Origin: Escherichia phage vB_EcoM-G28
Sequence record: NC_054916.1
Length of the DNA: 64,000 bases
Direction: 5' to 3' (one strand)
The notes below the pieces were generated by a model. It was not told where the DNA came from and did no database searches. It saw only the letters and a program-made list of their open reading frames with translations. Made by a program: the position numbers and the translations under genes. This document shows, in pieces, positions 2 to 50,728 of the stretch. Positions within the stretch are counted from its first letter, which is position 1. Every line of letters begins with the position of its first letter.

Positions 2-1177
<1,176 letters not shown>

Positions 1178-1205
1178 TATTAAAGCATATTAAAGAGGAT
1201 TAAAA

Positions 1206-3185
1206 ATGACTTTATTATCTCCGGGCATTGAGCTCAAAGAAACTACGGTTCAAAGCACCGTGGTTAATAACTCTACTGGTACAGCAGCTTTGGCCGGTAA
1301 ATTCCAGTGGGGTCCTGCTTTTCAGATTAAACAGGTTACAAATGAAGTAGATTTAGTTAATACTTTTGGTCAACCAACCGCTGAAACTGCTGACTATTTT
1401 ATGTCTGCGATGAATTTCTTGCAGTACGGAAATGACTTACGAGTAGTTCGTGCTGTTGATAGAGATACCGCTAAAAACTCATCACCAATTGCTGGTAATA
1501 TTGAATACACAATTTCTACCCCAGGTAGTAACTATGCGGTTGGAGATAAAATCACGGTCAAATATGTTTCAGATGATATTGAAACTGAAGGTAAAATTAC
1601 TGAAGTAGACGCAGATGGAAAAATTAAGAAAATTAATATTCCTACTGCAAAAATTATCGCTAAAGCTAAAGAAGTCGGTGAATATCCAGAATTAGGTTCT
1701 AACTGGACTGCGGAAATTTCTTCGTCTTCCTCTGGTTTAGCTGCAGTAATAACTCTTGGAAAAATTATTACTGATTCTGGTATTTTATTAGCTGAAATTG
1801 AAAATGCTGAAGCTGCTATGACAGCGGTTGACTTTCAAGCAAATCTCGAAAAATACGGAATTCCAGGAGTAGTAGCTCTTTATCCAGGCGAATTAGGCGA
1901 TAAAATTGAAATTGAAATCGTATCTAAAGCTGACTATGCAAAAGGAGCTTCTGCATTACTCCCAATTTATCCGGGCGGTGGTACTCGCGCATCTACTGCT
2001 AAAGCAGTGTTTGGATATGGACCACAAACTGATTCACAGTACGCTATTATAGTTCGTCGAAATGATGCTATTGTTCAAAGCGTTGTTCTTTCAACTAAGC
2101 GTGGTGAAAAAGATATTTACGATAGTAACATCTATATCGATGACTTTTTCGCAAAAGGTGGTTCAGAATATATTTTTGCAACTGCACAAAACTGGCCAGA
2201 AGGCTTCTCTGGAATTTTAACTCTGTCTGGTGGATTATCATCAAATGCTGAAGTAACAGCAGGAGATTTGATGGAAGCTTGGGACTTCTTTGCTGACCGT
2301 GAATCTGTTGACGTTCAACTGTTTATTGCGGGTTCTTGTGCTGGTGAATCTTTAGAAACAGCATCTACTGTCCAAAAACACGTCGTTTCAATTGGTGATG
2401 CTCGTCAAGATTGCTTAGTATTGTGCTCACCACCGCGTGAAACTGTAGTTGGAATTCCTGTAACCCGTGCTGTTGATAACTTAGTCAATTGGAGAACTGC
2501 AGCAGGTTCATACACTGATAATAACTTTAATATCAGTTCAACCTACGCAGCAATTGATGGTAACTACAAATATCAGTATGACAAATATAATGATGTGAAT
2601 CGTTGGGTCCCATTAGCAGCTGATATTGCTGGATTGTGTGCAAGAACCGATAACGTTTCTCAGACTTGGATGTCTCCAGCTGGTTATAATCGTGGCCAGA
2701 TTCTTAACGTTATTAAACTTGCTATTGAAACTCGCCAGGCTCAGCGCGACCGTTTATACCAAGAAGCTATCAACCCGGTAACTGGTACAGGTGGTGATGG
2801 TTACGTATTGTATGGTGATAAAACAGCTACTTCTGTTCCTTCTCCATTTGATCGTATTAACGTTCGTCGTCTGTTTAATATGTTGAAAACGAATATCGGA
2901 CGCAGTTCAAAATATCGTTTGTTCGAATTAAACAATGCGTTTACTCGTTCTTCATTCCGTACAGAAACTGCTCAGTACTTGCAAGGAATTAAAGCTCTTG
3001 GCGGAATTTATGAATATCGTGTAGTTTGCGATACAACAAATAACACTCCGTCAGTAATTGATAGAAATGAGTTTGTTGCAACATTCTACATCCAACCGGC
3101 TCGTAGTATAAATTATATCCAACTTAATTTCGTCGCAACTGCTACTGGTGCAGATTTCGATGAGTTAACTGGTCTTGCAGGTTAA
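1206..3185 (+). CDS. 18: Tail sheath protein gp18
   Basis: 659-aa ORF, size and position as T4 gp18; ATG start at 1206. Confidence 0.9.
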   Translation: MTLLSPGIELKETTVQSTVVNNSTGTAALAGKFQWGPAFQIKQVTNEVDLVNTFGQPTAETADYFMSAMNFLQYGNDLRVVRAVDRDTAKNSSPIAGNIEYTISTPGSNYAVGDKITVKYVSDDIETEGKITEVDADGKIKKINIPTAKIIAKAKEVGEYPELGSNWTAEISSSSSGLAAVITLGKIITDSGILLAEIENAEAAMTAVDFQANLEKYGIPGVVALYPGELGDKIEIEIVSKADYAKGASALLPIYPGGGTRASTAKAVFGYGPQTDSQYAIIVRRNDAIVQSVVLSTKRGEKDIYDSNIYIDDFFAKGGSEYIFATAQNWPEGFSGILTLSGGLSSNAEVTAGDLMEAWDFFADRESVDVQLFIAGSCAGESLETASTVQKHVVSIGDARQDCLVLCSPPRETVVGIPVTRAVDNLVNWRTAAGSYTDNNFNISSTYAAIDGNYKYQYDKYNDVNRWVPLAADIAGLCARTDNVSQTWMSPAGYNRGQILNVIKLAIETRQAQRDRLYQEAINPVTGTGGDGYVLYGDKTATSVPSPFDRINVRRLFNMLKTNIGRSSKYRLFELNNAFTRSSFRTETAQYLQGIKALGGIYEYRVVCDTTNNTPSVIDRNEFVATFYIQPARSINYIQLNFVATATGADFDELTGLAG

Positions 3186-3201
3186 TACAGTGCATTCTAA
3201 A

Positions 3202-3219
3202 GGCCTGTTTCGACAGGCC
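3202..3219 (+). terminator. GC-rich stem-loop with UUCG loop downstream of gene 18
   Basis: ggcctgt-ttcg-acaggcc immediately after the gene 18 stop. Confidence 0.55.
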
Positions 3220-3220
3220 A

Positions 3221-3228
3221 TATAAATA
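3221..3228 (+). promoter_or_regulatory. T4-type late promoter (TATAAATA), first of two upstream of gene 19
   Basis: Exact TATAAATA. Confidence 0.55.
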
Positions 3229-3279
3229 CACTATATCCTTAATTCTTTAATTCTATATGCCCTAGGTTAAACATAGGGA

Positions 3280-3287
3280 TATAAATA
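3280..3287 (+). promoter_or_regulatory. T4-type late promoter (TATAAATA), proximal to gene 19
   Basis: Exact TATAAATA about 15 nt upstream of the gene 19 ATG. Confidence 0.6.
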
Positions 3288-3301
3288 CTACAGAGGTTAA
3301 T

Positions 3302-3793
3302 ATGTTTGTAGATGATGTAACACGAGCGTTTGAATCTGGTGATTTTGCTCGACCTAACTTATTCCAAGTAGAAATTTCTTATCTTGGACAAAATTTTACG
3401 TTCCAATGTAAAGCCACTGCTTTACCAGCTGGTATTGTAGAAAAAATTCCAGTCGGATTTATGAACCGTAAAATTAACGTGGCAGGCGATCGTACATTCG
3501 ATGACTGGACTGTTACAGTAATGAACGATGAAGCTCATGATGCTCGCCAGAAGTTTGTTGATTGGCAAAGCATTGCTGCTGGTCAAGGAAACGAAATTAC
3601 TGGTGGAAAACCTGCAGAGTATAAAAAGAGCGCTATTGTTCGTCAATATGCTCGTGATGCTAAAACAGTAACAAAAGAAATTGAAATTAAAGGTCTGTGG
3701 CCTACTAACGTGGGTGAACTTCAATTAGATTGGGATTCAAACAATGAAATCCAAACCTTTGAAGTAACTCTTGCTCTCGATTATTGGGAATAA
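3302..3793 (+). CDS. 19: Tail tube protein gp19
   Basis: 163-aa ORF between sheath and portal genes, size as T4 gp19. Confidence 0.9.
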   Translation: MFVDDVTRAFESGDFARPNLFQVEISYLGQNFTFQCKATALPAGIVEKIPVGFMNRKINVAGDRTFDDWTVTVMNDEAHDARQKFVDWQSIAAGQGNEITGGKPAEYKKSAIVRQYARDAKTVTKEIEIKGLWPTNVGELQLDWDSNNEIQTFEVTLALDYWE

Positions 3794-3800
3794 AATGAAT

Positions 3801-3814
3801 GGGGAGAAATCCCC
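3801..3814 (+). terminator. Stem-loop with GAAA loop after gene 19
   Basis: gggga-gaaa-tcccc. Confidence 0.45.
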
Positions 3815-3825
3815 ATCCTGCTTAA

Positions 3826-5450
<1,625 letters not shown>

Positions 5451-6121: not shown

Positions 6122-6759
6122 TGAATGAACCCCAATTACTAATTGAAACTTGGGGTCAACCTGGCGAAATTATTGATGGCGTGCCAATGCTTGAATCTCA
6201 TGATGGAAAAGACTTAGGTTTAAAACCGGGTTTATACATCGAAGGAATATTCATGCAAGCGGAAGTCGTCAATAGAAATAAACGTCTTTATCCAAAACGC
6301 ATATTAGAAAAAGCGGTAAAAGACTATATTAATGAGCAAGTTTTAACTAAACAAGCTCTCGGAGAATTAAATCATCCTCCACGCGCTAATGTTGACCCAA
6401 TGCAAGCCGCTATCATTATAGAAGATATGTGGTGGAAAGGAAATGACGTATACGGACGAGCTCGTGTTATTGAAGGTGACCACGGTCCTGGAGATAAATT
6501 AGCAGCTAATATTCGTGCCGGATGGATTCCAGGAGTTTCTTCTCGTGGATTAGGTTCATTGACTGACACAAATAAAGGTTATCGTATCGTAAACGAAGGA
6601 TTCAAATTAACTGTAGGTGTTGATGCAGTATGGGGTCCAAGTGCTCCAGATGCATGGGTAACTCCTAAGGAAATTACCGAATCACAGACGGCGGAAGCCG
6701 ATACAAGTGCCGATGACGCCTATATGGCTCTCGCAGAGGCCATGAAAAAAGCGTTATAA
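6121..6759 (+). CDS. 21: Prohead protease gp21
   Basis: 212 aa; position and size as T4 gp21. Confidence 0.9.
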   Translation: MNEPQLLIETWGQPGEIIDGVPMLESHDGKDLGLKPGLYIEGIFMQAEVVNRNKRLYPKRILEKAVKDYINEQVLTKQALGELNHPPRANVDPMQAAIIIEDMWWKGNDVYGRARVIEGDHGPGDKLAANIRAGWIPGVSSRGLGSLTDTNKGYRIVNEGFKLTVGVDAVWGPSAPDAWVTPKEITESQTAEADTSADDAYMALAEAMKKAL

Positions 6760-6789
6760 ATATTATTATCTAAACAACAGGACTACAAA

Positions 6790-7599
6790 ATGCTTAAAGA
6801 ACAACTGATTGCTGAAGCGCAAAAAATTGATGCTTCCGTTGCTCTTGATAGTATTTTCGAATCAGTTAATATTTCTCCGGAAGCAAAAGAAACTTTCGGC
6901 ACTGTATTCGAAGCTACCGTCAAGCAGCACGCCGTTAAATTAGCTGAATCTCATATCGCTAAAATTGCTGAAAAGGCAGAAGAAGAAGTAGAAAAAAATA
7001 AAGAAGAAGCCGAAGAAAAAGCTGAGAAGAAAATCGCTGAGCAAGCTTCTAAATTCATCGACCATCTTGCAAAAGAATGGCTCGCCGAAAATAAATTAGC
7101 AGTTGATAAAGGCATCAAAGCCGAACTGTTTGAATCCATGCTTGGTGGATTAAAAGAGCTCTTTGTTGAACACAACGTTGTTGTTCCAGAAGAATCAGTT
7201 GATGTTGTAGCTGAAATGGAAGAAGAGCTGCAAGAACATAAAGAAGAATCAGCTCGTCTGTTCGAAGAACTCAATATGCGCGACGCATATATCAATTATG
7301 TGCAGCGTGAAGTGGCATTGAGCGAAAGTACTAAAGATCTGACTGAGTCTCAAAAAGAAAAAGTCTCTGCTCTGGTCGAAGGTATGGATTATTCAGATGC
7401 ATTCTCAAGTAAATTGAGTGCAATCGTAGAAATGGTGAAGAAATCTAATAAAGATGAAAGCACTATTACTGAGGGTATAAATACTCCTGATACTGAAGCA
7501 GCCGGACTGAATTTCGTCACTGAAGCTGTAGAAGATAAAGCTGCACAGGGTGCAGAAGATATTGTAAGTGTATATGCGAAAGTCGCATCTCGTTTCTAA
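6790..7599 (+). CDS. 22: Prohead core scaffold protein gp22
   Basis: 269 aa, acidic and helical; synteny. Confidence 0.9.
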   Translation: MLKEQLIAEAQKIDASVALDSIFESVNISPEAKETFGTVFEATVKQHAVKLAESHIAKIAEKAEEEVEKNKEEAEEKAEKKIAEQASKFIDHLAKEWLAENKLAVDKGIKAELFESMLGGLKELFVEHNVVVPEESVDVVAEMEEELQEHKEESARLFEELNMRDAYINYVQREVALSESTKDLTESQKEKVSALVEGMDYSDAFSSKLSAIVEMVKKSNKDESTITEGINTPDTEAAGLNFVTEAVEDKAAQGAEDIVSVYAKVASRF

Positions 7600-41342: not shown

Positions 41343-41839
41343 AAAGTTTTAATAACCTCTATAATATCGTCTTGAGAAAGACCGTTAATTAAAATATGAT
41401 GTTCAGCTGGAGATTTAGAAATTTTAAAGCATGCCTCAACATCTTCTGCCATATCCGATGCACTACGATTTGGATTACTAATTCCAAGACGATGTTTTCC
41501 CGTCAAAGGATTAACGATGATGTAGCATTTACAGCTATTAATGTGAACATTAGGTTGAGTCTGATTAATGAACACATCACAATCATATTTCGCAAGCTGA
41601 TTTTCTAAAAAGACTTTCATCTCCTCAACCGCATCAGGAAGCATATCACGGGCTTGCTCAAGACGACGATTTCGATATTCTTTGATGGTCGTTTTCCGCT
41701 TAACTTGCTTAGCTAAATCTTTCTTAAGATCGGTGATATATCCAACTCGACGATTTCCTTTGAATACAGAAATCCCATCTGTAGTATCACCGTATGCTTC
41801 AACGACCATCTCAGTAGTAATAAGCTGCAAATCCATCAT
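41333..41839 (-). CDS. alc: Alc (host transcription shut-off protein)
   Basis: 168 aa; position between rnlA and the pseT block as in T4. Confidence 0.75.
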   Translation of the reverse strand: MMDLQLITTEMVVEAYGDTTDGISVFKGNRRVGYITDLKKDLAKQVKRKTTIKEYRNRRLEQARDMLPDAVEEMKVFLENQLAKYDCDVFINQTQPNVHINSCKCYIIVNPLTGKHRLGISNPNRSASDMAEDVEACFKISKSPAEHHILINGLSQDDIIEVIKTLCM

Positions 41840-41843
41840 AAAG

Positions 41844-41897
41844 TCCTCATGTTATGTCAGTAAGATTATTATAACACAACACGAGGGACTTGTAAAC
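41844..41897 (-). promoter_or_regulatory. Early promoter plus leader module for alc (copy 1)
   Basis: Identical 54-mer to 26329..26382. Confidence 0.6.
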
Positions 41898-41903
41898 AGC
41901 TTA

Positions 41904-42190
<287 letters not shown>

Positions 42191-42194
42191 AAAG

Positions 42195-42248
42195 TCCTCA
42201 TGTTATGTCAGTAAGATTATTATAACACAACACGAGGGACTTGTAAAC
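42195..42248 (-). promoter_or_regulatory. Early promoter plus leader module, duplicated copy
   Basis: Third identical copy of the 54-mer, inside duplication copy 2. Confidence 0.55.
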
Positions 42249-42251
42249 AGC

Positions 42252-43839
<1,588 letters not shown>

Positions 43840-43847
43840 AATAAAAT

Positions 43848-43861
43848 GGGCCTTGCGGCCC
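43848..43861 (-). terminator. Stem-loop between nrdB and denA
   Basis: gggcc-ttgc-ggccc. Confidence 0.4.
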
Positions 43862-43868
43862 ACACTCC

Positions 43869-45047
43869 TTAAAAATATTTTTTAAAACTCATCATAACTT
43901 TATCATCAACATCATTATCAATCTGTGCAACAAGGTAAGATGACAGTTCTACTTCTTGTGGCGCGGATTGAACATTATCAGAATTAAGATATTCACGAAT
44001 CCAAGGATATGGATGTTTAACCGGAGCATCGGTAATTGGGCATGGAAGACCGCACTGTTTCATACGAGATACAGTTAAGTAATCAATAAAGCTCCACATG
44101 CTATTTGTATTTAATCCAGGAACATCGCCATCTTTAAATAAATGAACTGCCCAATCTTTTTCTTGGCGGTTAACTTCCATGAAAATATCAACTGCTTCTT
44201 GTTCACACTCTTGAGCAATTTTAACCCATTCATCGCCATCAGTACCGGATTGAAGTTGACGAATAATATATTGGGTGCCTTTAAGGTGAAGCTGCTCATC
44301 ACGTGCAATGAACTTCATAATCTTGGCATTACCTTCCATGATTTCCATGTTCTTATGGAAGTTAAAGGTACATGCAAAAGATACATAAAAACGAATAGCT
44401 TCTAAGGCATTAATAACGTGCAAACAGAGGTAAAGAGATTTCATTAGTGCTCGTTTAGCTTCGGCTTCTTGTTTAATAGCTCGATTTAAACGAAAAACAG
44501 CATCAGGAGATTCTTTAGCTAGTTCTGTAAATTCTTTAGCGTTTTCCCATTCACGGGTTTTAGTCAGAACATCATCATAATAACGTCCAATTGATTCAGC
44601 ACGTTTCATGATAGCTTCATCTAATACAATCTCATCAAATACCTTTGACGGATCAGTATAAAGATTTCGCATGATATGTGTATATGAACGACTATGAATA
44701 GTTTCACTAAAAGTCCATGTAGCAACCCATGTATCAAGACTTGGGTCTGAAATTAATGACATAAGTACAGCAGATGGCGCACGACCCTGAATGCTATCTA
44801 GAAGTGATTGATACTTCAGATTATTAGTAAAAATATCTTGCTGATATTGAGGAAGCTTGTTAAATTGTGCAGCATCCATCATTAAGTTTACTTCTTCAGG
44901 ACGCCAGAAAAATGACAACTGCTTTTCGGTTAAATCTTCAAAAACTTTATGACGTTGAATATCATAACGCGCAATACCAAGACCTGAACCGAAGAACATA
45001 GGTTCTTTTAAAACATCAACTGGATTTGTATTAAAAACTGTAGACAT
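43869..45047 (-). CDS. nrdB: Ribonucleotide reductase small subunit, uninterrupted (no intron)
   Basis: 392 aa from MSTVFNTNPVD; continuous reading frame; ATG overlaps the mobE stop. Confidence 0.9.
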   Translation of the reverse strand: MSTVFNTNPVDVLKEPMFFGSGLGIARYDIQRHKVFEDLTEKQLSFFWRPEEVNLMMDAAQFNKLPQYQQDIFTNNLKYQSLLDSIQGRAPSAVLMSLISDPSLDTWVATWTFSETIHSRSYTHIMRNLYTDPSKVFDEIVLDEAIMKRAESIGRYYDDVLTKTREWENAKEFTELAKESPDAVFRLNRAIKQEAEAKRALMKSLYLCLHVINALEAIRFYVSFACTFNFHKNMEIMEGNAKIMKFIARDEQLHLKGTQYIIRQLQSGTDGDEWVKIAQECEQEAVDIFMEVNRQEKDWAVHLFKDGDVPGLNTNSMWSFIDYLTVSRMKQCGLPCPITDAPVKHPYPWIREYLNSDNVQSAPQEVELSSYLVAQIDNDVDDKVMMSFKKYF

Positions 45048-45778
45048 TAATTTTTCCTCTTTAAAATTCTGCCGCGTTTCCAACCTGGCGGTATAATATC
45101 ATCTTTACCTATAAGCGTGCATTCACTTCCATTATTAATCCATTTCTTACCGCGGATTCCTTTATAATCTCTTGGTTGTATTTTGTCAAACTTTGCATCA
45201 AGTTGATATGCCCAACGAAATCCATAGGCATATTGAAATTTACCCTCAGCACAATATTTGATATTTGACCCGTTTCCATTAACTGATCTGGACGCTGCCG
45301 CAATAGAGTGAAAGGTTTCTATGAAATCCCCATCTAATGAGAATTTATGTATTTCGATAGATGGGCATGCATACCTATTCACGTTTGATACATGTTGTTT
45401 AGTTTCGTTTTTATGATGCTTGCCTAACATTCCTCTAGGATGAGGATTATTTTTCCAATATTTCTTAAAGAAATCAGAATTAGCTTTAGCAAATAATTTT
45501 CTGTGCAAGCTATACAATCTGTTATTAATTCTATTACCAGCTTTATCTGTTGCCATTAACGTTAACGCAGAGGCAAGACCAAAATGGCCTTCATTTATCT
45601 TGCATAGTAATAGATGCGCTATAAAATGTTCTCTAGCTGTTAATTCAACTAAATTTTCTTTATCATCAGAACCTCCCATGCATTTAGGGACTATATGATG
45701 TGTCTCTTTATATTCGGATAAAGGTTCCCGAGCCTGAGCTCGGGAAATTAGATCATTATAGATTTTTTGATAATTCAT
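45047..45778 (-). CDS. mobE: HNH-family homing endonuclease in the nrdA-nrdB intergenic position (MobE/Hef-like)
   Basis: 243 aa; HNH motif ETHHIVPKCMGG...N...EH; ATG overlaps the nrdA stop (TAATG). Confidence 0.8.
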   Translation of the reverse strand: MNYQKIYNDLISRAQAREPLSEYKETHHIVPKCMGGSDDKENLVELTAREHFIAHLLLCKINEGHFGLASALTLMATDKAGNRINNRLYSLHRKLFAKANSDFFKKYWKNNPHPRGMLGKHHKNETKQHVSNVNRYACPSIEIHKFSLDGDFIETFHSIAAASRSVNGNGSNIKYCAEGKFQYAYGFRWAYQLDAKFDKIQPRDYKGIRGKKWINNGSECTLIGKDDIIPPGWKRGRILKRKN

Positions 45779-48042
45779 TACAATTTACACGCTGCACAAT
45801 CGTCGGCTTTAGGAGTTTCTATTTCATAATCATCAGTACCAGAACCATCACGGGTATTATGATAATAGAAATTTTTAATGCCATAATACCATCCGTATAG
45901 CATGTCATCAATCATTACAGACATTGGAACCTTTCCTTTTGGAAAAATCTGCGGGTCATAATATGTATTCGCTGAAGCTGATTGACATACCCATTTCAGC
46001 ATAATAGCTACCTGCGTAAGATAAGGTTTATTACCTTTCTTAGCTAATTTCCATGTATAATCATAGAGGTCTATGTTATGCTCAATATTGGGCACGACTT
46101 GATTAAAGGAGCCCTCTTTTGATTCTTTAACACTTACCGGTCCACGTGGAGGCTCGATACCGTTTGTACTGTTAGAAACTTGGGAAGATGACTCACATGG
46201 CATAAGTGCTGATAATGTGCTATTACGGATGCCAAAGAGCTTAAGGTCTTCCCGCAGCGACGACCAGTCACAAACGTATTTTGGAGCTGCGATTTGGTCA
46301 ATCTTTTTATTGTACCAGTCGATAGGTAATTCGCCTCGAGACCAACGAGTGTCTGAATAATATTCGCAAGGTCCTTTTTCTTTGGCGAGCTTAATGGATG
46401 CTTTAATGAGTCCATACTGTAATCTCTCAAATAGTTCATGTGTTAAATCGTTAGCATCTTCATAAGAAGCAAAGTTACTTGCCAGCCAAGCTGCATAGTT
46501 GGTAACACCTACACCGAGGTTACGACGCTTTTTAGCTTTTTCTGCTTCAGGAACTGGATATCCTTGGTAATCCAAAAGATTATCAAGAGCACGAACTTGA
46601 ACTTCTGCCAATTCATTAATTTTATCTTGGTCTTGCCAATCGAAGTTATCCAACACAAATGCAGATAACGTGCACAATCCAATTTCAGCATCAGGACTAT
46701 TCACATCATTTGTTGGAATAGCAATTTCACAACACAGGTTACTCTGACGAATCGGTGCCTTTTCACGAATAAATGGAGTATAGTTATTCGTATTATCAAT
46801 GAACTGTACATAAATCCTTGCTGTTCCTGATCGTTCAGTCATGAGCAATTCAAATAGTTCACGGGCTTTAATACGCTTTTTGCGAATATTAGGGTCTTTT
46901 TCTGCTGCTTCGTATAATTCGCGGAAACGGTCTTGGTCTTTAAAATAAGAATAATAAAGCTCGCCACCCATTTCATGCGGACTGAACAAAGTAATGTAGT
47001 CGTTCTTTCCAAAACGTTCCATCATCAAATCATTCAGCTGGACGCCATAATCCATATGACGGATACGGTTTTCTTCTACACCTTTGTTATTTTTCAAAAC
47101 GAGAAGATTTTCAACTTCCAAATGCCAAATGGGATAATAAGCAGTAGCAGCGCCGCCACGAATTCCGCCCTGTGAACATGATTTAACAGCAGTCTGAAAA
47201 TGTTTCCAAAAAGGAATAACACCAGTATGGCGTACTTCACCCATGCCAATCTTAGAACCTTCGGCACGAATCATACCAACGTTAATACCAATTCCAGCGC
47301 GTTTAGAGATATATTCAACGATTGAAGCGGAAGCCTTATTGATAGACTTCAGCGAATCACCTGCCTCAATAACAACACATGAACTAAACTGTCGAGTCGG
47401 AGTACGGCAACCAGCCATAATAGGAGTTGGCAATGAAATCTGTCGAGTAGATACTGCTTCATAAAAACGGATAACATGTTTTAATCTATCAACAGGTTCA
47501 TCTTGATGTAATGCCATTCCAATAGTCATAAATGCAAACTGTGGAGTTTCATAAATTTGACCAGTGGTTTTATCTTTAACTAGATATTTTTCTTTTAATT
47601 GCATCGCCCCGGAATAAGTAAATTCCATATCCCGCTCGTGCTTAATTTTTGATTCTAAAAATGTAATTTCTTCTGCTGAATATTTTGACAATAATTCAGG
47701 GTCATATTTACCTTCATTTACACAGTAAGAAATATGGTCAATAAATGAACGTGGTTCATACTGCCCATAAACATGCTTACGAAGAGCAAACATTAAACAG
47801 CGTGCAGCTACATATTGATAATCAGGCTCTTCAACCGAAATAGAATTCGCAGCGGCCTTAATGACAATAGTCTGAATATCATCAGTTGTCATTCCATCAC
47901 GGAGATATGATTTAATATTTTCATATAATTCATAAGGATTTACAGATGTTCCTTCAGCTGCCCAAGATAAAACTTTAATAATTTTTTGTGGATCAAAGCT
48001 CTGAGAAACGCCACTACTTTTGATAACATTAATTAATTGCAT
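45778..48042 (-). CDS. nrdA: Ribonucleotide reductase large subunit
   Basis: 754 aa; size as T4 NrdA. Confidence 0.95.
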   Translation of the reverse strand: MQLINVIKSSGVSQSFDPQKIIKVLSWAAEGTSVNPYELYENIKSYLRDGMTTDDIQTIVIKAAANSISVEEPDYQYVAARCLMFALRKHVYGQYEPRSFIDHISYCVNEGKYDPELLSKYSAEEITFLESKIKHERDMEFTYSGAMQLKEKYLVKDKTTGQIYETPQFAFMTIGMALHQDEPVDRLKHVIRFYEAVSTRQISLPTPIMAGCRTPTRQFSSCVVIEAGDSLKSINKASASIVEYISKRAGIGINVGMIRAEGSKIGMGEVRHTGVIPFWKHFQTAVKSCSQGGIRGGAATAYYPIWHLEVENLLVLKNNKGVEENRIRHMDYGVQLNDLMMERFGKNDYITLFSPHEMGGELYYSYFKDQDRFRELYEAAEKDPNIRKKRIKARELFELLMTERSGTARIYVQFIDNTNNYTPFIREKAPIRQSNLCCEIAIPTNDVNSPDAEIGLCTLSAFVLDNFDWQDQDKINELAEVQVRALDNLLDYQGYPVPEAEKAKKRRNLGVGVTNYAAWLASNFASYEDANDLTHELFERLQYGLIKASIKLAKEKGPCEYYSDTRWSRGELPIDWYNKKIDQIAAPKYVCDWSSLREDLKLFGIRNSTLSALMPCESSSQVSNSTNGIEPPRGPVSVKESKEGSFNQVVPNIEHNIDLYDYTWKLAKKGNKPYLTQVAIMLKWVCQSASANTYYDPQIFPKGKVPMSVMIDDMLYGWYYGIKNFYYHNTRDGSGTDDYEIETPKADDCAACKL

Positions 48043-48359
48043 AAGTCCTCAACTTGAAAATCGTCTTTAAACAATCGGTTAACTATATGAGCTATTATAT
48101 CACCATGACACGGCTTTGGTTTACATGTGCATCCTAGCCTCATTCCACGTAAAGGCTCTAAATGTGCTTTAGTTATTTCTCCGGATTTAATTCGACGTAT
48201 AAAATCTTTTTTGAATAATTCAATGGCAGCCTCCCGGCTGCCAGCATCTTTACCGACGTAATTTCCCCAAAATGTACCGCGGTGAATATTAACATCAAAG
48301 TCGGATTTATATTTATTCACTACCCGGCATAGACGGCCCGCGCGGTGATAATTCAGCAT
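48033..48359 (-). CDS. Hypothetical protein (nrdA.x block)
   Basis: 108-aa ORF. Confidence 0.55.
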
Positions 48360-48588
48360 ATTGTTTTTCCGTCAAAACAGTAATATCGTAGTAACAGTCA
48401 GAAGAAGTTTTAACTGTGGAAATTTTATTATCAAAATACTCACGGGTCATTTTATGAGTATAATATTTTTTACCATAAATGATAATAGGCTGATTTGGTC
48501 CTGGAACTTCTAACTCGCTTGGGTTAGGAAGTGTAAAAAGAACGGCACCAGAAGTATCTTTAAATCGTAAAATCATATATCCTCGCAA
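48313..48588 (-). CDS. Hypothetical protein (nrdA.x block)
   Basis: 91-aa ORF. Confidence 0.5.
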
Positions 48589-48599
48589 TTAAATTAAAA

Positions 48600-48911
48600 T
48601 TATACCGCCATTTTTCCTTTCAAGACACCGTGGGATTGATAATCTTTGAGAACGAAATCTTTAGGTCTAAGTTTAAGAACATATTTTAATTGTTCTTTAG
48701 TAGAAAGATATCGGAATTTATAAGGTAGACCACTTATTACCAGCTCACAAAGCTCTTTAGGTTCACGCCTCAAAATTTCTTTACATTGTTCTACGTGATT
48801 CATATAGATATGAGTATTACCACCAGAAAATATCAAATCTCCTGGAATAAGATTACACATCTTAGCTACAATATGAACTAACGTAGCATATGATGCAATA
48901 TTAAACGGTAG
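48600..48911 (-). CDS. td: Thymidylate synthase, exon 2
   Basis: 103 codons from LPFNIASYATLVH; the leading Met in the ORF track is an artefact spanning the intron's last G. Confidence 0.9.
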   Translation of the reverse strand, partial: LPFNIASYATLVHIVAKMCNLIPGDLIFSGGNTHIYMNHVEQCKEILRREPKELCELVISGLPYKFRYLSTKEQLKYVLKLRPKDFVLKDYQSHGVLKGKMAV

Positions 48912-49356
48912 CATTATGTTCAGATAAGGTCGTTAATCTTACCCCGGAATTATATCCAGCTGCATGTCACCATGCAGATCAGACTATATCTCCAACTTGT
49001 TAAAGCAAGTTGTCTATCGTTTCGAGTCACTTGACCCTACTCCCCAAAGGGATAGTCGTTAGGCATTTATGTAGAACCAATTCCATTTATCAGATTTTAC
49101 ACGATAAGTAACTAATCCAGACGAAATTTTAAAATGCCTTTTCCATCTCTTTTCAAAATCTTTAGCACTTCCTACATATACTTTATTGTTTAAAGTATTT
49201 TTAATCTGATAAATTCCGCTTTTCATAAATACCTCTTTAAATATAGAAGTATTATTAAAGGGCAGTCCTACAATTTAGCACGGGATTGTCTACTAGAGAG
49301 GTTCCCCGTTTAGATAGATTACAAGTATAAGTCACCTTATACTCAGGCCTCAATTA
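48912..49356 (-). ncRNA. Group I self-splicing intron of td, about 445 nt, with a deleted endonuclease ORF
   Basis: Intron 5' end TAATTGAGGCCTGAGTATAAGGTGACTTATACTTGTAATC and 3' end ...CTGAACATAATG match the T4 td intron as I recall it; exon 1 ends in U. Confidence 0.85.
49059..49226 (-). pseudogene. I-TevI homing endonuclease remnant (55 aa, internal in-frame deletion)
   Basis: MKSGIYQIKNTLNNKVYVGSAKDFEKRWKRHFK joined directly to ISSGLVTYRVKSDKWNWFYINA; the catalytic and DNA-binding regions between them are missing. Confidence 0.85.

Positions 49357-50728
<1,372 letters not shown>

What the first reader, a model, noticed from the sequence alone, without database searches (positions are those of the whole stretch)
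43869..45778. nrdB has no intron although an HNH endonuclease gene sits between nrdA and nrdB
nrdB reads as one continuous 392-codon frame; T4 nrdB carries a group I intron as I recall. The nrdA/HNH/nrdB junctions are tightly packed with overlapping stop-start codons (TAATG). An intron-less nrdB next to a mobE-like gene is the kind of configuration involved in trans-homing and marker exclusion in mixed infections.
Basis: partly seen in the sequence, partly recalled or inferred. Interest (0 to 1): 0.45.

Follow-up and report, generated by a model that had tools for sequence, protein, structure and literature searches.

The report
Common mobE plus intron-less nrdB
This part of a T4-like phage genome has a selfish HNH endonuclease gene (mobE) between the two ribonucleotide reductase genes and an uninterrupted nrdB; phage T6 and dozens of sequenced relatives have the same layout, so it is ordinary.

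Summary
On the minus strand, nrdA (45778-48042), a 243-aa HNH gene (45047-45778) and an uninterrupted 392-aa nrdB (43869-45047) are joined by two TAATG stop/start overlaps. No group I intron lies in or next to nrdB.

It is not unusual. The nrdB intron is the minority state: 129 phage records carry it. Of 52 deposited genomes with this same HNH allele next to nrdB, 41 are intron-less, as is classical phage T6.

The HNH gene is the allele that the RB3 records annotate as mobE (98.8% nt identity). It is intact, under purifying selection (dN/dS about 0.1) and predicted to have an I-HmuI-like fold. It is unrelated to Hef.

This allele shares only the first ~57 aa (HNH module, internal terminator hairpin) with the T4/T6 MobE. 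Its C-terminus is a NUMOD1 region, not the NUMOD3/zinc-finger region of T4/T6 MobE.

The adjacent nrdB is identical over nt 58-179 to T2 nrdB, the substrate that T4 MobE nicks at nt 122-126. The intron insertion site is also vacant and T2-like. The phage therefore looks like a mobE donor and a likely recipient of T4-type mobE and the intron. It cannot be a trans-homing donor of an intron.

Verdict: already known, low interest.

The parts
45778..48042 (-). nrdA, class Ia ribonucleotide reductase large subunit (754 aa). Its last 28 nt carry the haplotype (..DCAACKL) seen in all 11 sampled mobE-holding phages.
   Evidence: ORF. Pfam ATP-cone, Ribonuc_red_lgN and lgC. Seven fixed differences between 11 mobE holders and 6 mobE-less phages, all within nrdA nt 2238-2264.
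45776..45780 (-). TAATG overlap of the nrdA stop and the mobE start (UAAUGA in the mRNA). There is no Shine-Dalgarno sequence, so mobE translation is probably coupled to nrdA.
   Evidence: Sequence. Identical arrangement described for T4 mobE in PMC2988022. The coupling itself is inferred.
45047..45778 (-). RB3-type mobE, a free-standing HNH homing endonuclease gene (243 aa). The HNH module is aa 1-57 (H27, H28, N42, H51, H55). The C-terminal region is of NUMOD1 type (Pfam hit at aa 147-177).
   Evidence: ORF. Pfam NUMOD1 at 25.9 bits; HNH at 19.3 bits, below the 21.4 cutoff. PHROG 655 homing endonuclease, 1e-57. 98.8% nt identity to RB3 mobE. Catalytic-motif residues invariant in 48 homologues. 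dN/dS 0.05-0.11. AF2 model pLDDT 89, top structural hit I-HmuI.
45725..45746 (-). Hairpin inside the 5' end of mobE (9-bp stem, 4-nt loop, weak U tract). The same sequence is the mapped weak intrinsic terminator of T4 mobE.
   Evidence: Fold dG -17.1 kcal/mol, z -3.75, 0 of 200 shuffles fold as well. Sequence identical to T4 over the hairpin. Terminator function was shown for T4 only (PMC2790892).
45093..45119 (-). Candidate MotA-type middle promoter for nrdB inside the 3' end of mobE (GCTT at 45116-45113, TATTAT at 45098-45093). Inferred only.
   Evidence: Sequence. [quoted passage not shown] Apart from one substitution and the 1-nt indel before the stop in two phages, the last ~130 nt of this allele are identical in 9 phages while the rest varies. 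Not tested.
45045..45049 (-). TAATG overlap of the mobE stop and the nrdB start. The nrdB Shine-Dalgarno sequence GAGG at 45059-45056 lies inside mobE.
   Evidence: Sequence. Present in 7 of 9 sampled phages with this allele; the other 2 have a 1-nt deletion that gives a 17-nt overlap.
43869..45047 (-). nrdB, class Ia ribonucleotide reductase small subunit, uninterrupted (392 aa).
   Evidence: ORF. Pfam PF00268, E 4e-37. Same length as the annotated T2 NrdB. No intron found by Rfam or by alignment.
44917..44934 (-). nrdB nt 114-131, the region that is polymorphic between T2 and T4 around the T4-MobE nick sites (nt 122-126 = 44926-44922; codon 42 = AAG). Here it is identical to the nicked T2 allele.
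   Evidence: Alignments: the window equals T2 over nrdB nt 58-179, whereas T4, T6 and LF82-1 carry CGG or AAA at codon 42 plus many other changes. Nick site taken from PMC2790892.
44371..44372 (-). Vacant insertion site of the T4/RB3-type nrdB group I intron (between nrdB nt 676 and 677, inside a Cys codon). The flanks are identical to T2 from nt 649 to 720.
   Evidence: RB3 exons differ from the window by one synonymous base (GCG vs GCA) next to the site.
43846..43863 (-). Terminator-like hairpin with a T-run between nrdB and denA.
   Evidence: Consensus scan. The same element is annotated as a putative terminator in phage G50.
43429..43839 (-). denA (endonuclease II, GIY-YIG), the downstream neighbour, as in T4, RB3 and T2.
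   Evidence: Pfam GIY-YIG. Synteny with annotated records.

Best explanation
This is the aerobic ribonucleotide reductase locus of a T4-like (Tequatrovirus) phage in one of its common natural states: nrdA, then a free-standing HNH homing endonuclease gene of the RB3 type ('mobE'), then an nrdB that carries no group I intron.

Shown here:
- The gene order and the two TAATG overlaps.
- The HNH gene is intact, conserved and under purifying selection.
- Its HNH module and internal hairpin are virtually identical to T4 mobE, while its C-terminal two thirds are a different, NUMOD1-containing region.
- The nrdB intron insertion site is empty.

Inferred from work on T4 MobE and from the anatomy:
- mobE has no promoter of its own. 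It is transcribed from the nrdA promoters, damped by the internal weak terminator, and translated by coupling to nrdA termination.
- nrdB expression is restored by a promoter and Shine-Dalgarno sequence embedded in the 3' end of mobE, which also selects against loss of mobE.
- In a mixed infection with a relative that has the empty nrdA-nrdB junction, the endonuclease nicks or cuts the rival genome near the junction. Recombinational repair then copies mobE and its flanking markers into the rival (homing, marker exclusion).
- Because nrdB has no intron, nothing is trans-homed.
- The vacant intron site and the T2-identical T4-MobE nick site make this phage a predicted recipient of the intron (through RB3-type I-TevIII) and of T4-type mobE.
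For: - Anatomy.
- Same arrangement elsewhere: the collection holds 52 complete records with this mobE allele plus nrdB at 92-97% identity. 41 are intron-less and 11 carry the 1091-nt intron. T6 has T4-type mobE plus a continuous 1167-nt nrdB.
- Frequencies of the locus states: 377 records with an uninterrupted T2-like junction, 53 with this allele at full length, 71 with the T4/T6 allele, 129 with the nrdB intron.
- Identity as RB3 mobE: 98.8% nt.
- HNH module versus T4 MobE: 63% over 110 aa, E 8e-43. Versus T6 MobE: 66% over 103 aa.
- Invariant E25, H27, H28, N42, H51 and H55 across 48 homologues.
- dN/dS 0.05-0.11, and no disrupted copy among 9.
- Hairpin.
- No intron.
- Mechanism for T4 MobE (nick at T2 nrdB nt 122-126, dependence on the HNH motif, terminator, embedded nrdB promoter, mobE+ I-TevIII- progeny): PMC2790892. 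Translational coupling: PMC2988022.
Against: - No activity has been shown here for this allele. All mechanistic experiments cited are on T4 MobE, whose C-terminal region is unrelated.
- The Pfam HNH hit is just below the curated cutoff (19.3 vs 21.4 bits).
- The Foldseek E-value for I-HmuI is above 1e-3, and global TM-scores are low, as expected for an extended multi-domain protein.
- The nrdB next to the gene shows no polymorphisms that separate holders from non-holders. The self-protection-by-target-polymorphism model proposed for T4 is therefore not visible for this allele, and its target is unknown.
- The candidate middle promoter matches the MotA box only loosely.
- The flank comparison rests on 17 genomes only.
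Confidence: 0.8

Rival explanations
1. The RB3-type and T4/T6-type mobE are two competing alleles of one homing-endonuclease locus. They share the nuclease module, the 5' regulatory hairpin and the nrdA-3' flank, but have different DNA-binding modules and therefore different targets. Each can invade genomes holding the other. In particular, T4-type MobE should nick this phage's T2-identical nrdB and replace its mobE 3' two thirds, with or without the intron.
For: - The first ~170 nt are 96.5% identical between alleles, then there is no detectable similarity.
- Domains are NUMOD1 here versus two NUMOD3 plus a zinc-finger-like motif in T6, and the same in T4 nrdB.1.
- The window's nrdB nt 58-179 is identical to T2.
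- 8 of 9 sampled RB3-type holders have the T2-like block with codon 42 = AAG.
- All three sampled T4-type haplotypes (T4, T6, LF82-1) have CGG or AAA plus further changes. The 71 T4-type records fall into three identity bands relative to T6, around >=95.8%, ~90% and ~83-85%.
- Aplg8 is a natural recombinant: RB3-type mobE next to a T6-like nrdB 5' end.
Against: - The target of the RB3-type enzyme is unmapped, and it could be the same site.
- From my memory of Sandegren et al. 2005, which is not held in the library, free-standing endonucleases such as SegH and Hef cut their own genomes too. Absence of 'immunity' polymorphisms therefore does not prove a different target.
- RB14-like mobE-less phages also carry a T6-like block apart from two positions, so that block is not a clean marker of immunity.
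- Sample sizes are small.
Confidence: 0.3
2. The nrdB here once carried the intron and lost it, either by precise deletion or by recombination with an intron-less allele, rather than never having been invaded.
For: - Close relatives with the same mobE allele (the RB3 group, pSe_SNUABM_01, G2540-3) carry the full intron.
- The nrdB 3' part downstream of the site is 98.6% identical to RB3.
- Wilson and Edgell showed that recombination readily uncouples mobE from the intron.
Against: - The base next to the insertion site is the T2 state (GCA), not the RB3 exon state (GCG), and the flanks equal T2 over nt 649-720.
- Intron-less is the majority state both overall and for this allele.
- The two histories leave the same end state and cannot be separated with these data.
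Confidence: 0.3
3. The HNH gene is a defunct, decaying remnant. On this reading it is retained only because it carries the promoter and ribosome-binding site of nrdB, and it has no endonuclease activity.
For: - The nrdB Shine-Dalgarno sequence and a candidate promoter lie inside its 3' end.
- Apart from one substitution and the 1-nt indel before the stop in two phages, the last ~130 nt are identical among 9 phages.
- Wilson and Edgell argue that the embedded promoter selects against deletion.
- In vitro activity of MobE has never been obtained.
Against: - The full-length ORF is intact in 9 of 9 sampled copies.
- dN/dS is 0.05-0.11 across the whole gene, with dS up to 0.19.
- HNH motif residues are invariant in 48 homologues reaching Vibrio and Erwinia phages.
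- The model is confident with an I-HmuI-like fold.
Confidence: 0.1
4. The gene is Hef, the non-HNH endonuclease that occupies the same position in phage U5, rather than MobE.
For: It occupies the same intergenic position between nrdA and nrdB.
Against: - BLASTP against U5 Hef (544 aa) gives no significant match (best E 1.4).
- The window protein has an HNH motif and is 243 aa.
- Hef-like enzymes are treated as a separate class.
Confidence: 0.01

Closest known systems
mobE of phage RB3 and its close relatives (records KM606994 and AY262130, annotated MobE / putative homing endonuclease)
   Same: Same position, same length (243 aa), 98.8% nt identity, same TAATG junctions, same hairpin.
   Different: RB3 also has the 1091-nt nrdB intron with intact I-TevIII, which the window lacks. 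RB3 nrdB has a few synonymous changes in nt 114-150 where the window equals T2.
MobE of phages T4 and T6, the experimentally studied free-standing HNH homing endonuclease (Wilson and Edgell 2009, PMC2790892)
   Same: - Same locus between nrdA and nrdB.
- The same last 28 nt of nrdA.
- UAAUGA coupling.
- The internal terminator hairpin sequence is identical to T4's.
- HNH module aa 1-57 nearly identical.
- T6, like the window, has an intron-less nrdB.
   Different: - From about codon 58 the proteins are unrelated. The window has NUMOD1, with T4 MobB as its closest T4 paralogue at 28.8% identity. T6 has two NUMOD3 motifs plus a zinc-finger-like motif.
- T4 and T6 nrdB carry many substitutions around the mapped nick site (codon 42 CGG or AAA). 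The window has the T2 sequence.
- T4 additionally carries the defunct I-TevIII intron.
Phage T2 nrdA-nrdB region (empty site; the recipient in the published crosses)
   Same: nrdB is 392 aa and intron-less. nrdB nt 58-179 and nt 649-720 are identical to the window.
   Different: T2 has a 51-nt intergenic spacer instead of mobE. It also has the alternative nrdA 3' end (..DCSSCKL, TGA stop).
I-HmuI (PDB 1u3e), the intron-encoded HNH nicking homing endonuclease of Bacillus phage SPO1
   Different: Only 12% sequence identity, and no sequence-level hit to any solved structure. I-HmuI is intron-encoded, whereas this gene is free-standing.
Hef of phage U5 (Sandegren et al. 2005; record AY262133)
   Same: Occupies the same nrdA-nrdB position. 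Reported to target nrdB (PMC2988022).
   Different: 544 aa, no HNH motif class, no detectable similarity. U5 nrdB carries an intron.
T4/RB3 nrdB group I intron with I-TevIII
   Same: Its insertion site (nrdB nt 676/677) is present and intact in the window.
   Different: The intron itself is absent.

Membership tests
T-even mobE (free-standing HNH homing endonuclease between nrdA and nrdB) | Gene lies between nrdA and nrdB, same strand, with no upstream intergenic space of its own; the start overlaps the nrdA stop (UAAUGA). | tested here: met
   Same as in the T4, T6 and RB3 records. Arrangement described in PMC2988022.
T-even mobE (free-standing HNH homing endonuclease between nrdA and nrdB) | N-terminal HNH nuclease module homologous to T4 MobE. 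| tested here: met
   63% identity over 110 aa to T4 MobE, E 8e-43. 66% over 103 aa to T6 MobE. H27, H28, N42, H51 and H55 invariant in 48 homologues. The Pfam HNH hit is sub-threshold, 19.3 vs 21.4 bits.
T-even mobE (free-standing HNH homing endonuclease between nrdA and nrdB) | C-terminal (DNA-binding) region homologous to that of the characterised T4/T6 MobE. | tested here: not met
   No similarity beyond about aa 100 to T6 MobE, to T4 mobE or to T4 nrdB.1. NUMOD1 here versus NUMOD3 plus a zinc-finger-like motif in T6. The DNA diverges completely after about nt 190. It is, however, the allele that the RB3 records name mobE.
T-even mobE (free-standing HNH homing endonuclease between nrdA and nrdB) | Intrinsic terminator hairpin about 27 nt downstream of the AUG. 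| tested here: met
   9-bp stem and 4-nt loop at 45746-45725, dG -17.1, z -3.75. Sequence identical to T4. Termination itself was not tested.
T-even mobE (free-standing HNH homing endonuclease between nrdA and nrdB) | HNH-dependent strand-specific nick in nrdB of mobE-less phage, and super-Mendelian inheritance in mixed infection. | not testable with these tools
   Shown only for T4 MobE (PMC2790892). Needs crosses and primer extension.
Trans-homing configuration (MobE mobilising a neighbouring defunct nrdB intron) | A non-autonomous group I intron within about 2 kb of the endonuclease's cleavage site in the donor genome. | tested here: not met
   No intron in nrdB. The nearest intron is in td, about 3.9 kb upstream of mobE's 3' end.
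nrdB group I intron carrier (T4/RB3 type) | Insertion of 0.6-1.1 kb between nrdB nt 676 and 677 with a group I fold. | tested here: not met
   Continuous ORF. Alignment to RB3 shows the bases are adjacent. No Intron_gpI hit in nrdB even at E <= 1.
Hef (U5-type endonuclease replacing mobE) | Sequence similarity to U5 Hef. | tested here: not met
   BLASTP best E 1.4.
I-HmuI-like modular HNH homing endonucleases (structural class) | HNH fold followed by extended DNA-binding modules resembling I-HmuI. | tested here: met
Class Ia ribonucleotide reductase small subunit (NrdB) | Full-length match to the RNR small-chain family and co-linearity with T-even NrdB. | tested here: met
   PF00268, E 4e-37, aa 33-335. 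94-100% identity to the T4 exon 1 product and to SF2-1 NrdB. Same length as T2 NrdB.

The most novel reading that the evidence does not exclude
The nrdA-nrdB junction of T-even phages holds two interchangeable mobE alleles. They share one HNH nuclease cassette, its regulatory hairpin and the nrdA-3' flank, but carry unrelated DNA-binding modules: NUMOD1/MobB-like here and in RB3, NUMOD3/zinc-finger in T4 and T6.

Only the T4/T6 allele is linked to substitutions at the mapped nick site in nrdB. Genomes with the RB3-type allele, including this one, keep the T2 sequence. They would therefore be open to invasion by the T4-type allele (and by the intron), while their own enzyme cuts somewhere else.

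That would make the locus a natural case of endonuclease-versus-endonuclease competition and of domain swapping that re-targets a homing endonuclease.
Probability: 0.3. Interest if true: 0.4.

Novelty: already known. Interest (0 to 1): 0.13.

Why it matters
As stated, the finding does not change anything. A mobE gene between nrdA and nrdB, an intron-free nrdB, and the overlapping stop/start codons are all described for T-even phages and are present in many deposited genomes. The practical value lies in correct annotation and in not treating T4's intron as the default.

The one thread worth a specialist's attention is that the gene called mobE comes in two forms with different DNA-binding regions, and that only one form has a mapped target. 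If the two forms really have different targets and can displace one another, the locus would be a convenient natural system for two questions: how homing endonucleases are re-targeted by domain exchange, and how they compete in mixed infections.

Tried and rejected
- Hidden or degenerate intron in nrdB: rejected. Rfam gave no hit at gathering threshold or at E <= 1, and base-by-base comparison with RB3 shows no insertion.
- Hef identity: rejected. I first guessed accessions for U5 (AY262135, AY262136, DQ178122). These turned out to be TuIa, T2 nrdD and a record not in the collection. U5 was then found as AY262133.
- Reading Sandegren et al. 2005 (DOI and PMC1275590): not held. What I say about it comes from other papers' citations or from memory, and is marked as such.
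- Sequence search of the protein against solved structures: only a non-significant HNH-motif match to a group II intron maturase (E 0.14). The link to I-HmuI rests on the predicted fold.
- Search for polymorphisms that would mark the target of this mobE allele. In 17 genomes no column of the first 600 nt of nrdB separates holders from non-holders. The only fixed differences are the last 28 nt of nrdA, and these are shared with the T4-type allele. The target therefore could not be inferred.
- The sigma-70 scan found about as many promoter-like sites as in shuffled sequence (14 vs 12.1), so it is uninformative. The proposed nrdB middle promoter is a manual, unverified reading.
- The literature search for mobE together with NUMOD1 or NUMOD3 found no paper that discusses the two C-terminal types. 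This is weak evidence of absence, because the library is incomplete.
Full report
**What is there.** The window is from a T4-like phage (Tequatrovirus). From 39 kb to 50.5 kb the minus strand carries, in T4 order, pseT, alc, rnlA, denA, nrdB, an HNH gene, nrdA, nrdA.1, td and frd (T4 record).
- nrdA is 45778-48042 (754 aa; ATP-cone plus both RNR large-subunit domains).
- The HNH ORF is 45047-45778 (243 aa).
- nrdB is 43869-45047 (392 aa from the ATG at 45047; PF00268, E 4e-37).
- Both junctions are TAATG with one shared base.

**No intron.**
- Rfam finds nothing at gathering threshold in the whole window.
- At E <= 1 in 43300-50000 it finds only the td intron (48960-49143, 40.9 bits).
- RB3 has the same genes at 97% identity plus a 1091-nt insertion. 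Base-by-base comparison puts that intron between nrdB nt 676 and 677, which are adjacent in the window at 44372/44371.
- The flanks of this vacant site are identical to T2 from nt 649 to 720. They differ from the RB3 exons by one synonymous base.

**How common the arrangement is.** In the phage collection:
- 377 records have the uninterrupted T2-type nrdA-spacer-nrdB junction.
- 53 have the window's HNH allele at full length.
- 71 have the T4/T6 allele.
- 129 have the nrdB intron.
- Of 52 complete records that match the whole mobE+nrdB stretch, 41 are a single 1910-nt piece (no intron) and 11 span about 3001 nt (intron present).
- Phage T6 has mobE followed by a continuous 1167-nt nrdB.
- Wilson and Edgell obtained mobE+ I-TevIII- progeny directly from T4 x T2 crosses (PMC2790892).

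mobE next to an intron-less nrdB is thus the usual state, and T4 is the exception.

**What the HNH gene is.**
- It is 98.8% identical in DNA to the gene annotated mobE in the RB3 records.
- It matches PHROG 655 'homing endonuclease' at 1e-57.
- Pfam gives NUMOD1 (aa 147-177) above threshold and HNH just below it (19.3 vs 21.4 bits).
- The motif residues E25, H27, H28, N42, H51 and H55 are invariant in an alignment of 48 homologues.
- Nine sampled copies are all intact. Pairwise dN/dS is 0.05-0.11 with dS up to 0.19.
- A sequence-only search of the PDB gave nothing significant.
- It has no similarity to Hef of phage U5, which sits at the same position (best E 1.4).

**Two alleles of 'mobE'.**
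- Against T4 and T6, the first ~170 nt of the gene are about 96% identical, and the hairpin sequence is identical to T4's. After that the sequences are unrelated.
- At protein level the match to T4 MobE and T6 MobE ends near residue 100.
- The T6 protein (213 aa) has two NUMOD3 motifs and a zinc-finger-like end. The T4 reference splits the same region into mobE (141 aa) and nrdB.1 (83 aa, NUMOD3 plus zinc-finger-like) because of a frame change.
- The C-terminal 186 aa of the window protein find MobB as their closest T4 relative (28.8% identity). They find 44-72% identical proteins in Yersinia, Morganella, Salmonella, Erwinia and Vibrio phages.

The window gene is therefore mobE by position, by N-terminal module and by the name given in the RB3 records. 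It is not an orthologue of the characterised T4 MobE in its presumed DNA-binding part.

**Regulatory anatomy.**
- The UAAUGA overlap with nrdA and the absence of a Shine-Dalgarno sequence match the arrangement described for T4 mobE, for which translational coupling has been proposed (PMC2988022).
- The hairpin at 45746-45725 (9-bp stem, 4-nt loop, dG -17.1, z -3.75) has the same sequence as the T4 element. In T4 that element terminates 30-50% of transcripts (PMC2790892).
- The nrdB Shine-Dalgarno sequence (GAGG, 45059-45056) lies inside mobE.
- A loose MotA-box/-10 pair (GCTT at 45116-45113, TATTAT at 45098-45093) is a candidate for the nrdB middle promoter that T4 carries in the 3' end of its mobE.
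- Apart from one substitution and the 1-nt indel before the stop in two phages, the last ~130 nt of the gene are identical in nine phages while the rest varies. This fits such embedded signals but is only weakly significant.
- The promoter is inferred, not tested. The sigma-70 scan was uninformative.

**Target-site status.**
- T4 MobE nicks the non-coding strand of T2 nrdB at nt 122-126 (codon 42 AAG). The T4 authors proposed that substitutions at nt 114-131 protect holders.
- The window's nrdB is identical to T2 over nt 58-179.
- Of nine sampled genomes with the RB3-type allele, eight have this T2-like block. Aplg8 has a T6-like one.
- The three sampled T4-type haplotypes (T4, T6, LF82-1) have CGG or AAA and further changes. 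The 71 T4-type records fall into three identity bands relative to T6, around >=95.8%, ~90% and ~83-85%.
- In 17 genomes, the only columns separating mobE holders (11) from non-holders (6) are seven positions in the last 28 nt of nrdA (..DCAACKL vs ..DCSSCKL). Both alleles share these. No column in the first 600 nt of nrdB separates RB3-type holders from non-holders.

It follows, by inference, that this phage should be nickable by T4-type MobE. The target of its own enzyme cannot be read from these data.

**Verdict on the interpretation.** The gene is mobE-like and intact, and homing or marker exclusion is a reasonable function. The configuration is not remarkable. It also cannot perform trans-homing of an intron, because it has none. 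It is better described in two ways:
- as a mobE donor toward phages with the empty junction;
- as a predicted recipient of the nrdB intron and of the T4-type allele.

**Scores.** The finding as written is already known and ordinary (interest 0.13). The most novel reading not excluded is competition and domain exchange between two mobE alleles with different targets (probability about 0.3, interest if true about 0.4).

Noticed in passing
window 48915-49353 (td intron); ORF 49059-49226 (-): The td gene is split by a group I intron of only about 445 nt (Rfam Intron_gpI, 40.9 bits, below the 50-bit gathering score). Its I-TevI ORF is reduced to 55 aa, consistent with an in-frame deletion of about 570 nt that joins the start of the GIY-YIG domain to the end of the DNA-binding domain. 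Nearly all relatives have the full 1016-nt intron. Phage FL18 (PP400780) matches the short form in one piece. This is a defunct endonuclease about 3.3 kb upstream of mobE.
   Followed up: partly
window 41696-42398: A perfect tandem duplication of 351 bp (41696-42046 and 42047-42397, 100% identical) spans the 3' end of rnlA, the spacer and the 5' end of alc. It leaves an extra alc N-terminal fragment and an extra rnlA C-terminal fragment. The best-matching phage records hold a single copy. It is either a recent duplication or an assembly artefact.
   Followed up: partly
L003 (T4 NC_000866) 6717-7417: The T4 reference annotates mobE as 141 aa followed by a separate nrdB.1 (83 aa). nrdB.1 carries the NUMOD3 and zinc-finger-like motifs that form the C-terminus of the uninterrupted 213-aa T6 MobE. 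In the T4 reference the two parts are in different frames.
   Followed up: partly
window about 44450-44535 (nrdB nt 515-600): nrdB has a hypervariable segment with three unrelated haplotypes among 17 phages, one of them 12 nt shorter (388 vs 392 aa). The haplotypes are distributed independently of mobE presence or type.
   Followed up: no
L016 (JoYop) and L017 (Aplg8), 2070-2096: Two phages with the RB3-type mobE have a 1-nt deletion just before the stop. This extends the ORF to 248 aa and makes it overlap nrdB by 17 nt instead of the TAATG overlap. Aplg8 also combines this allele with a T6-like nrdB 5' end, so it is a natural recombinant.
   Followed up: partly
L012 (vB_EcoM_CE1) 2309-2635: CE1 has no mobE, but its nrdB is annotated as two ORFs separated by about 325 nt at the position of the intron site. 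This looks like a short ORF-less intron, and the second half is mis-annotated as 'major capsid protein'.
   Followed up: no
record LR597660.1 (Escherichia phage T4_ev151), hit H130: A record named T4_ev151 carries the RB3-type mobE with an intron-less nrdB, unlike the T4 reference (T4-type mobE plus intron). Its ancestry is unknown to me. If it derives from T4 by experimental evolution with other phages, it would show allele replacement at this locus.
   Followed up: no
L021 (U5, AY262133) 237-4129: Phage U5 has hef (544 aa) in place of mobE, overlapping the nrdA end by 26 nt. Its nrdB does carry an intron, so every combination of junction occupant and intron state seems to occur in nature.
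   Followed up: no
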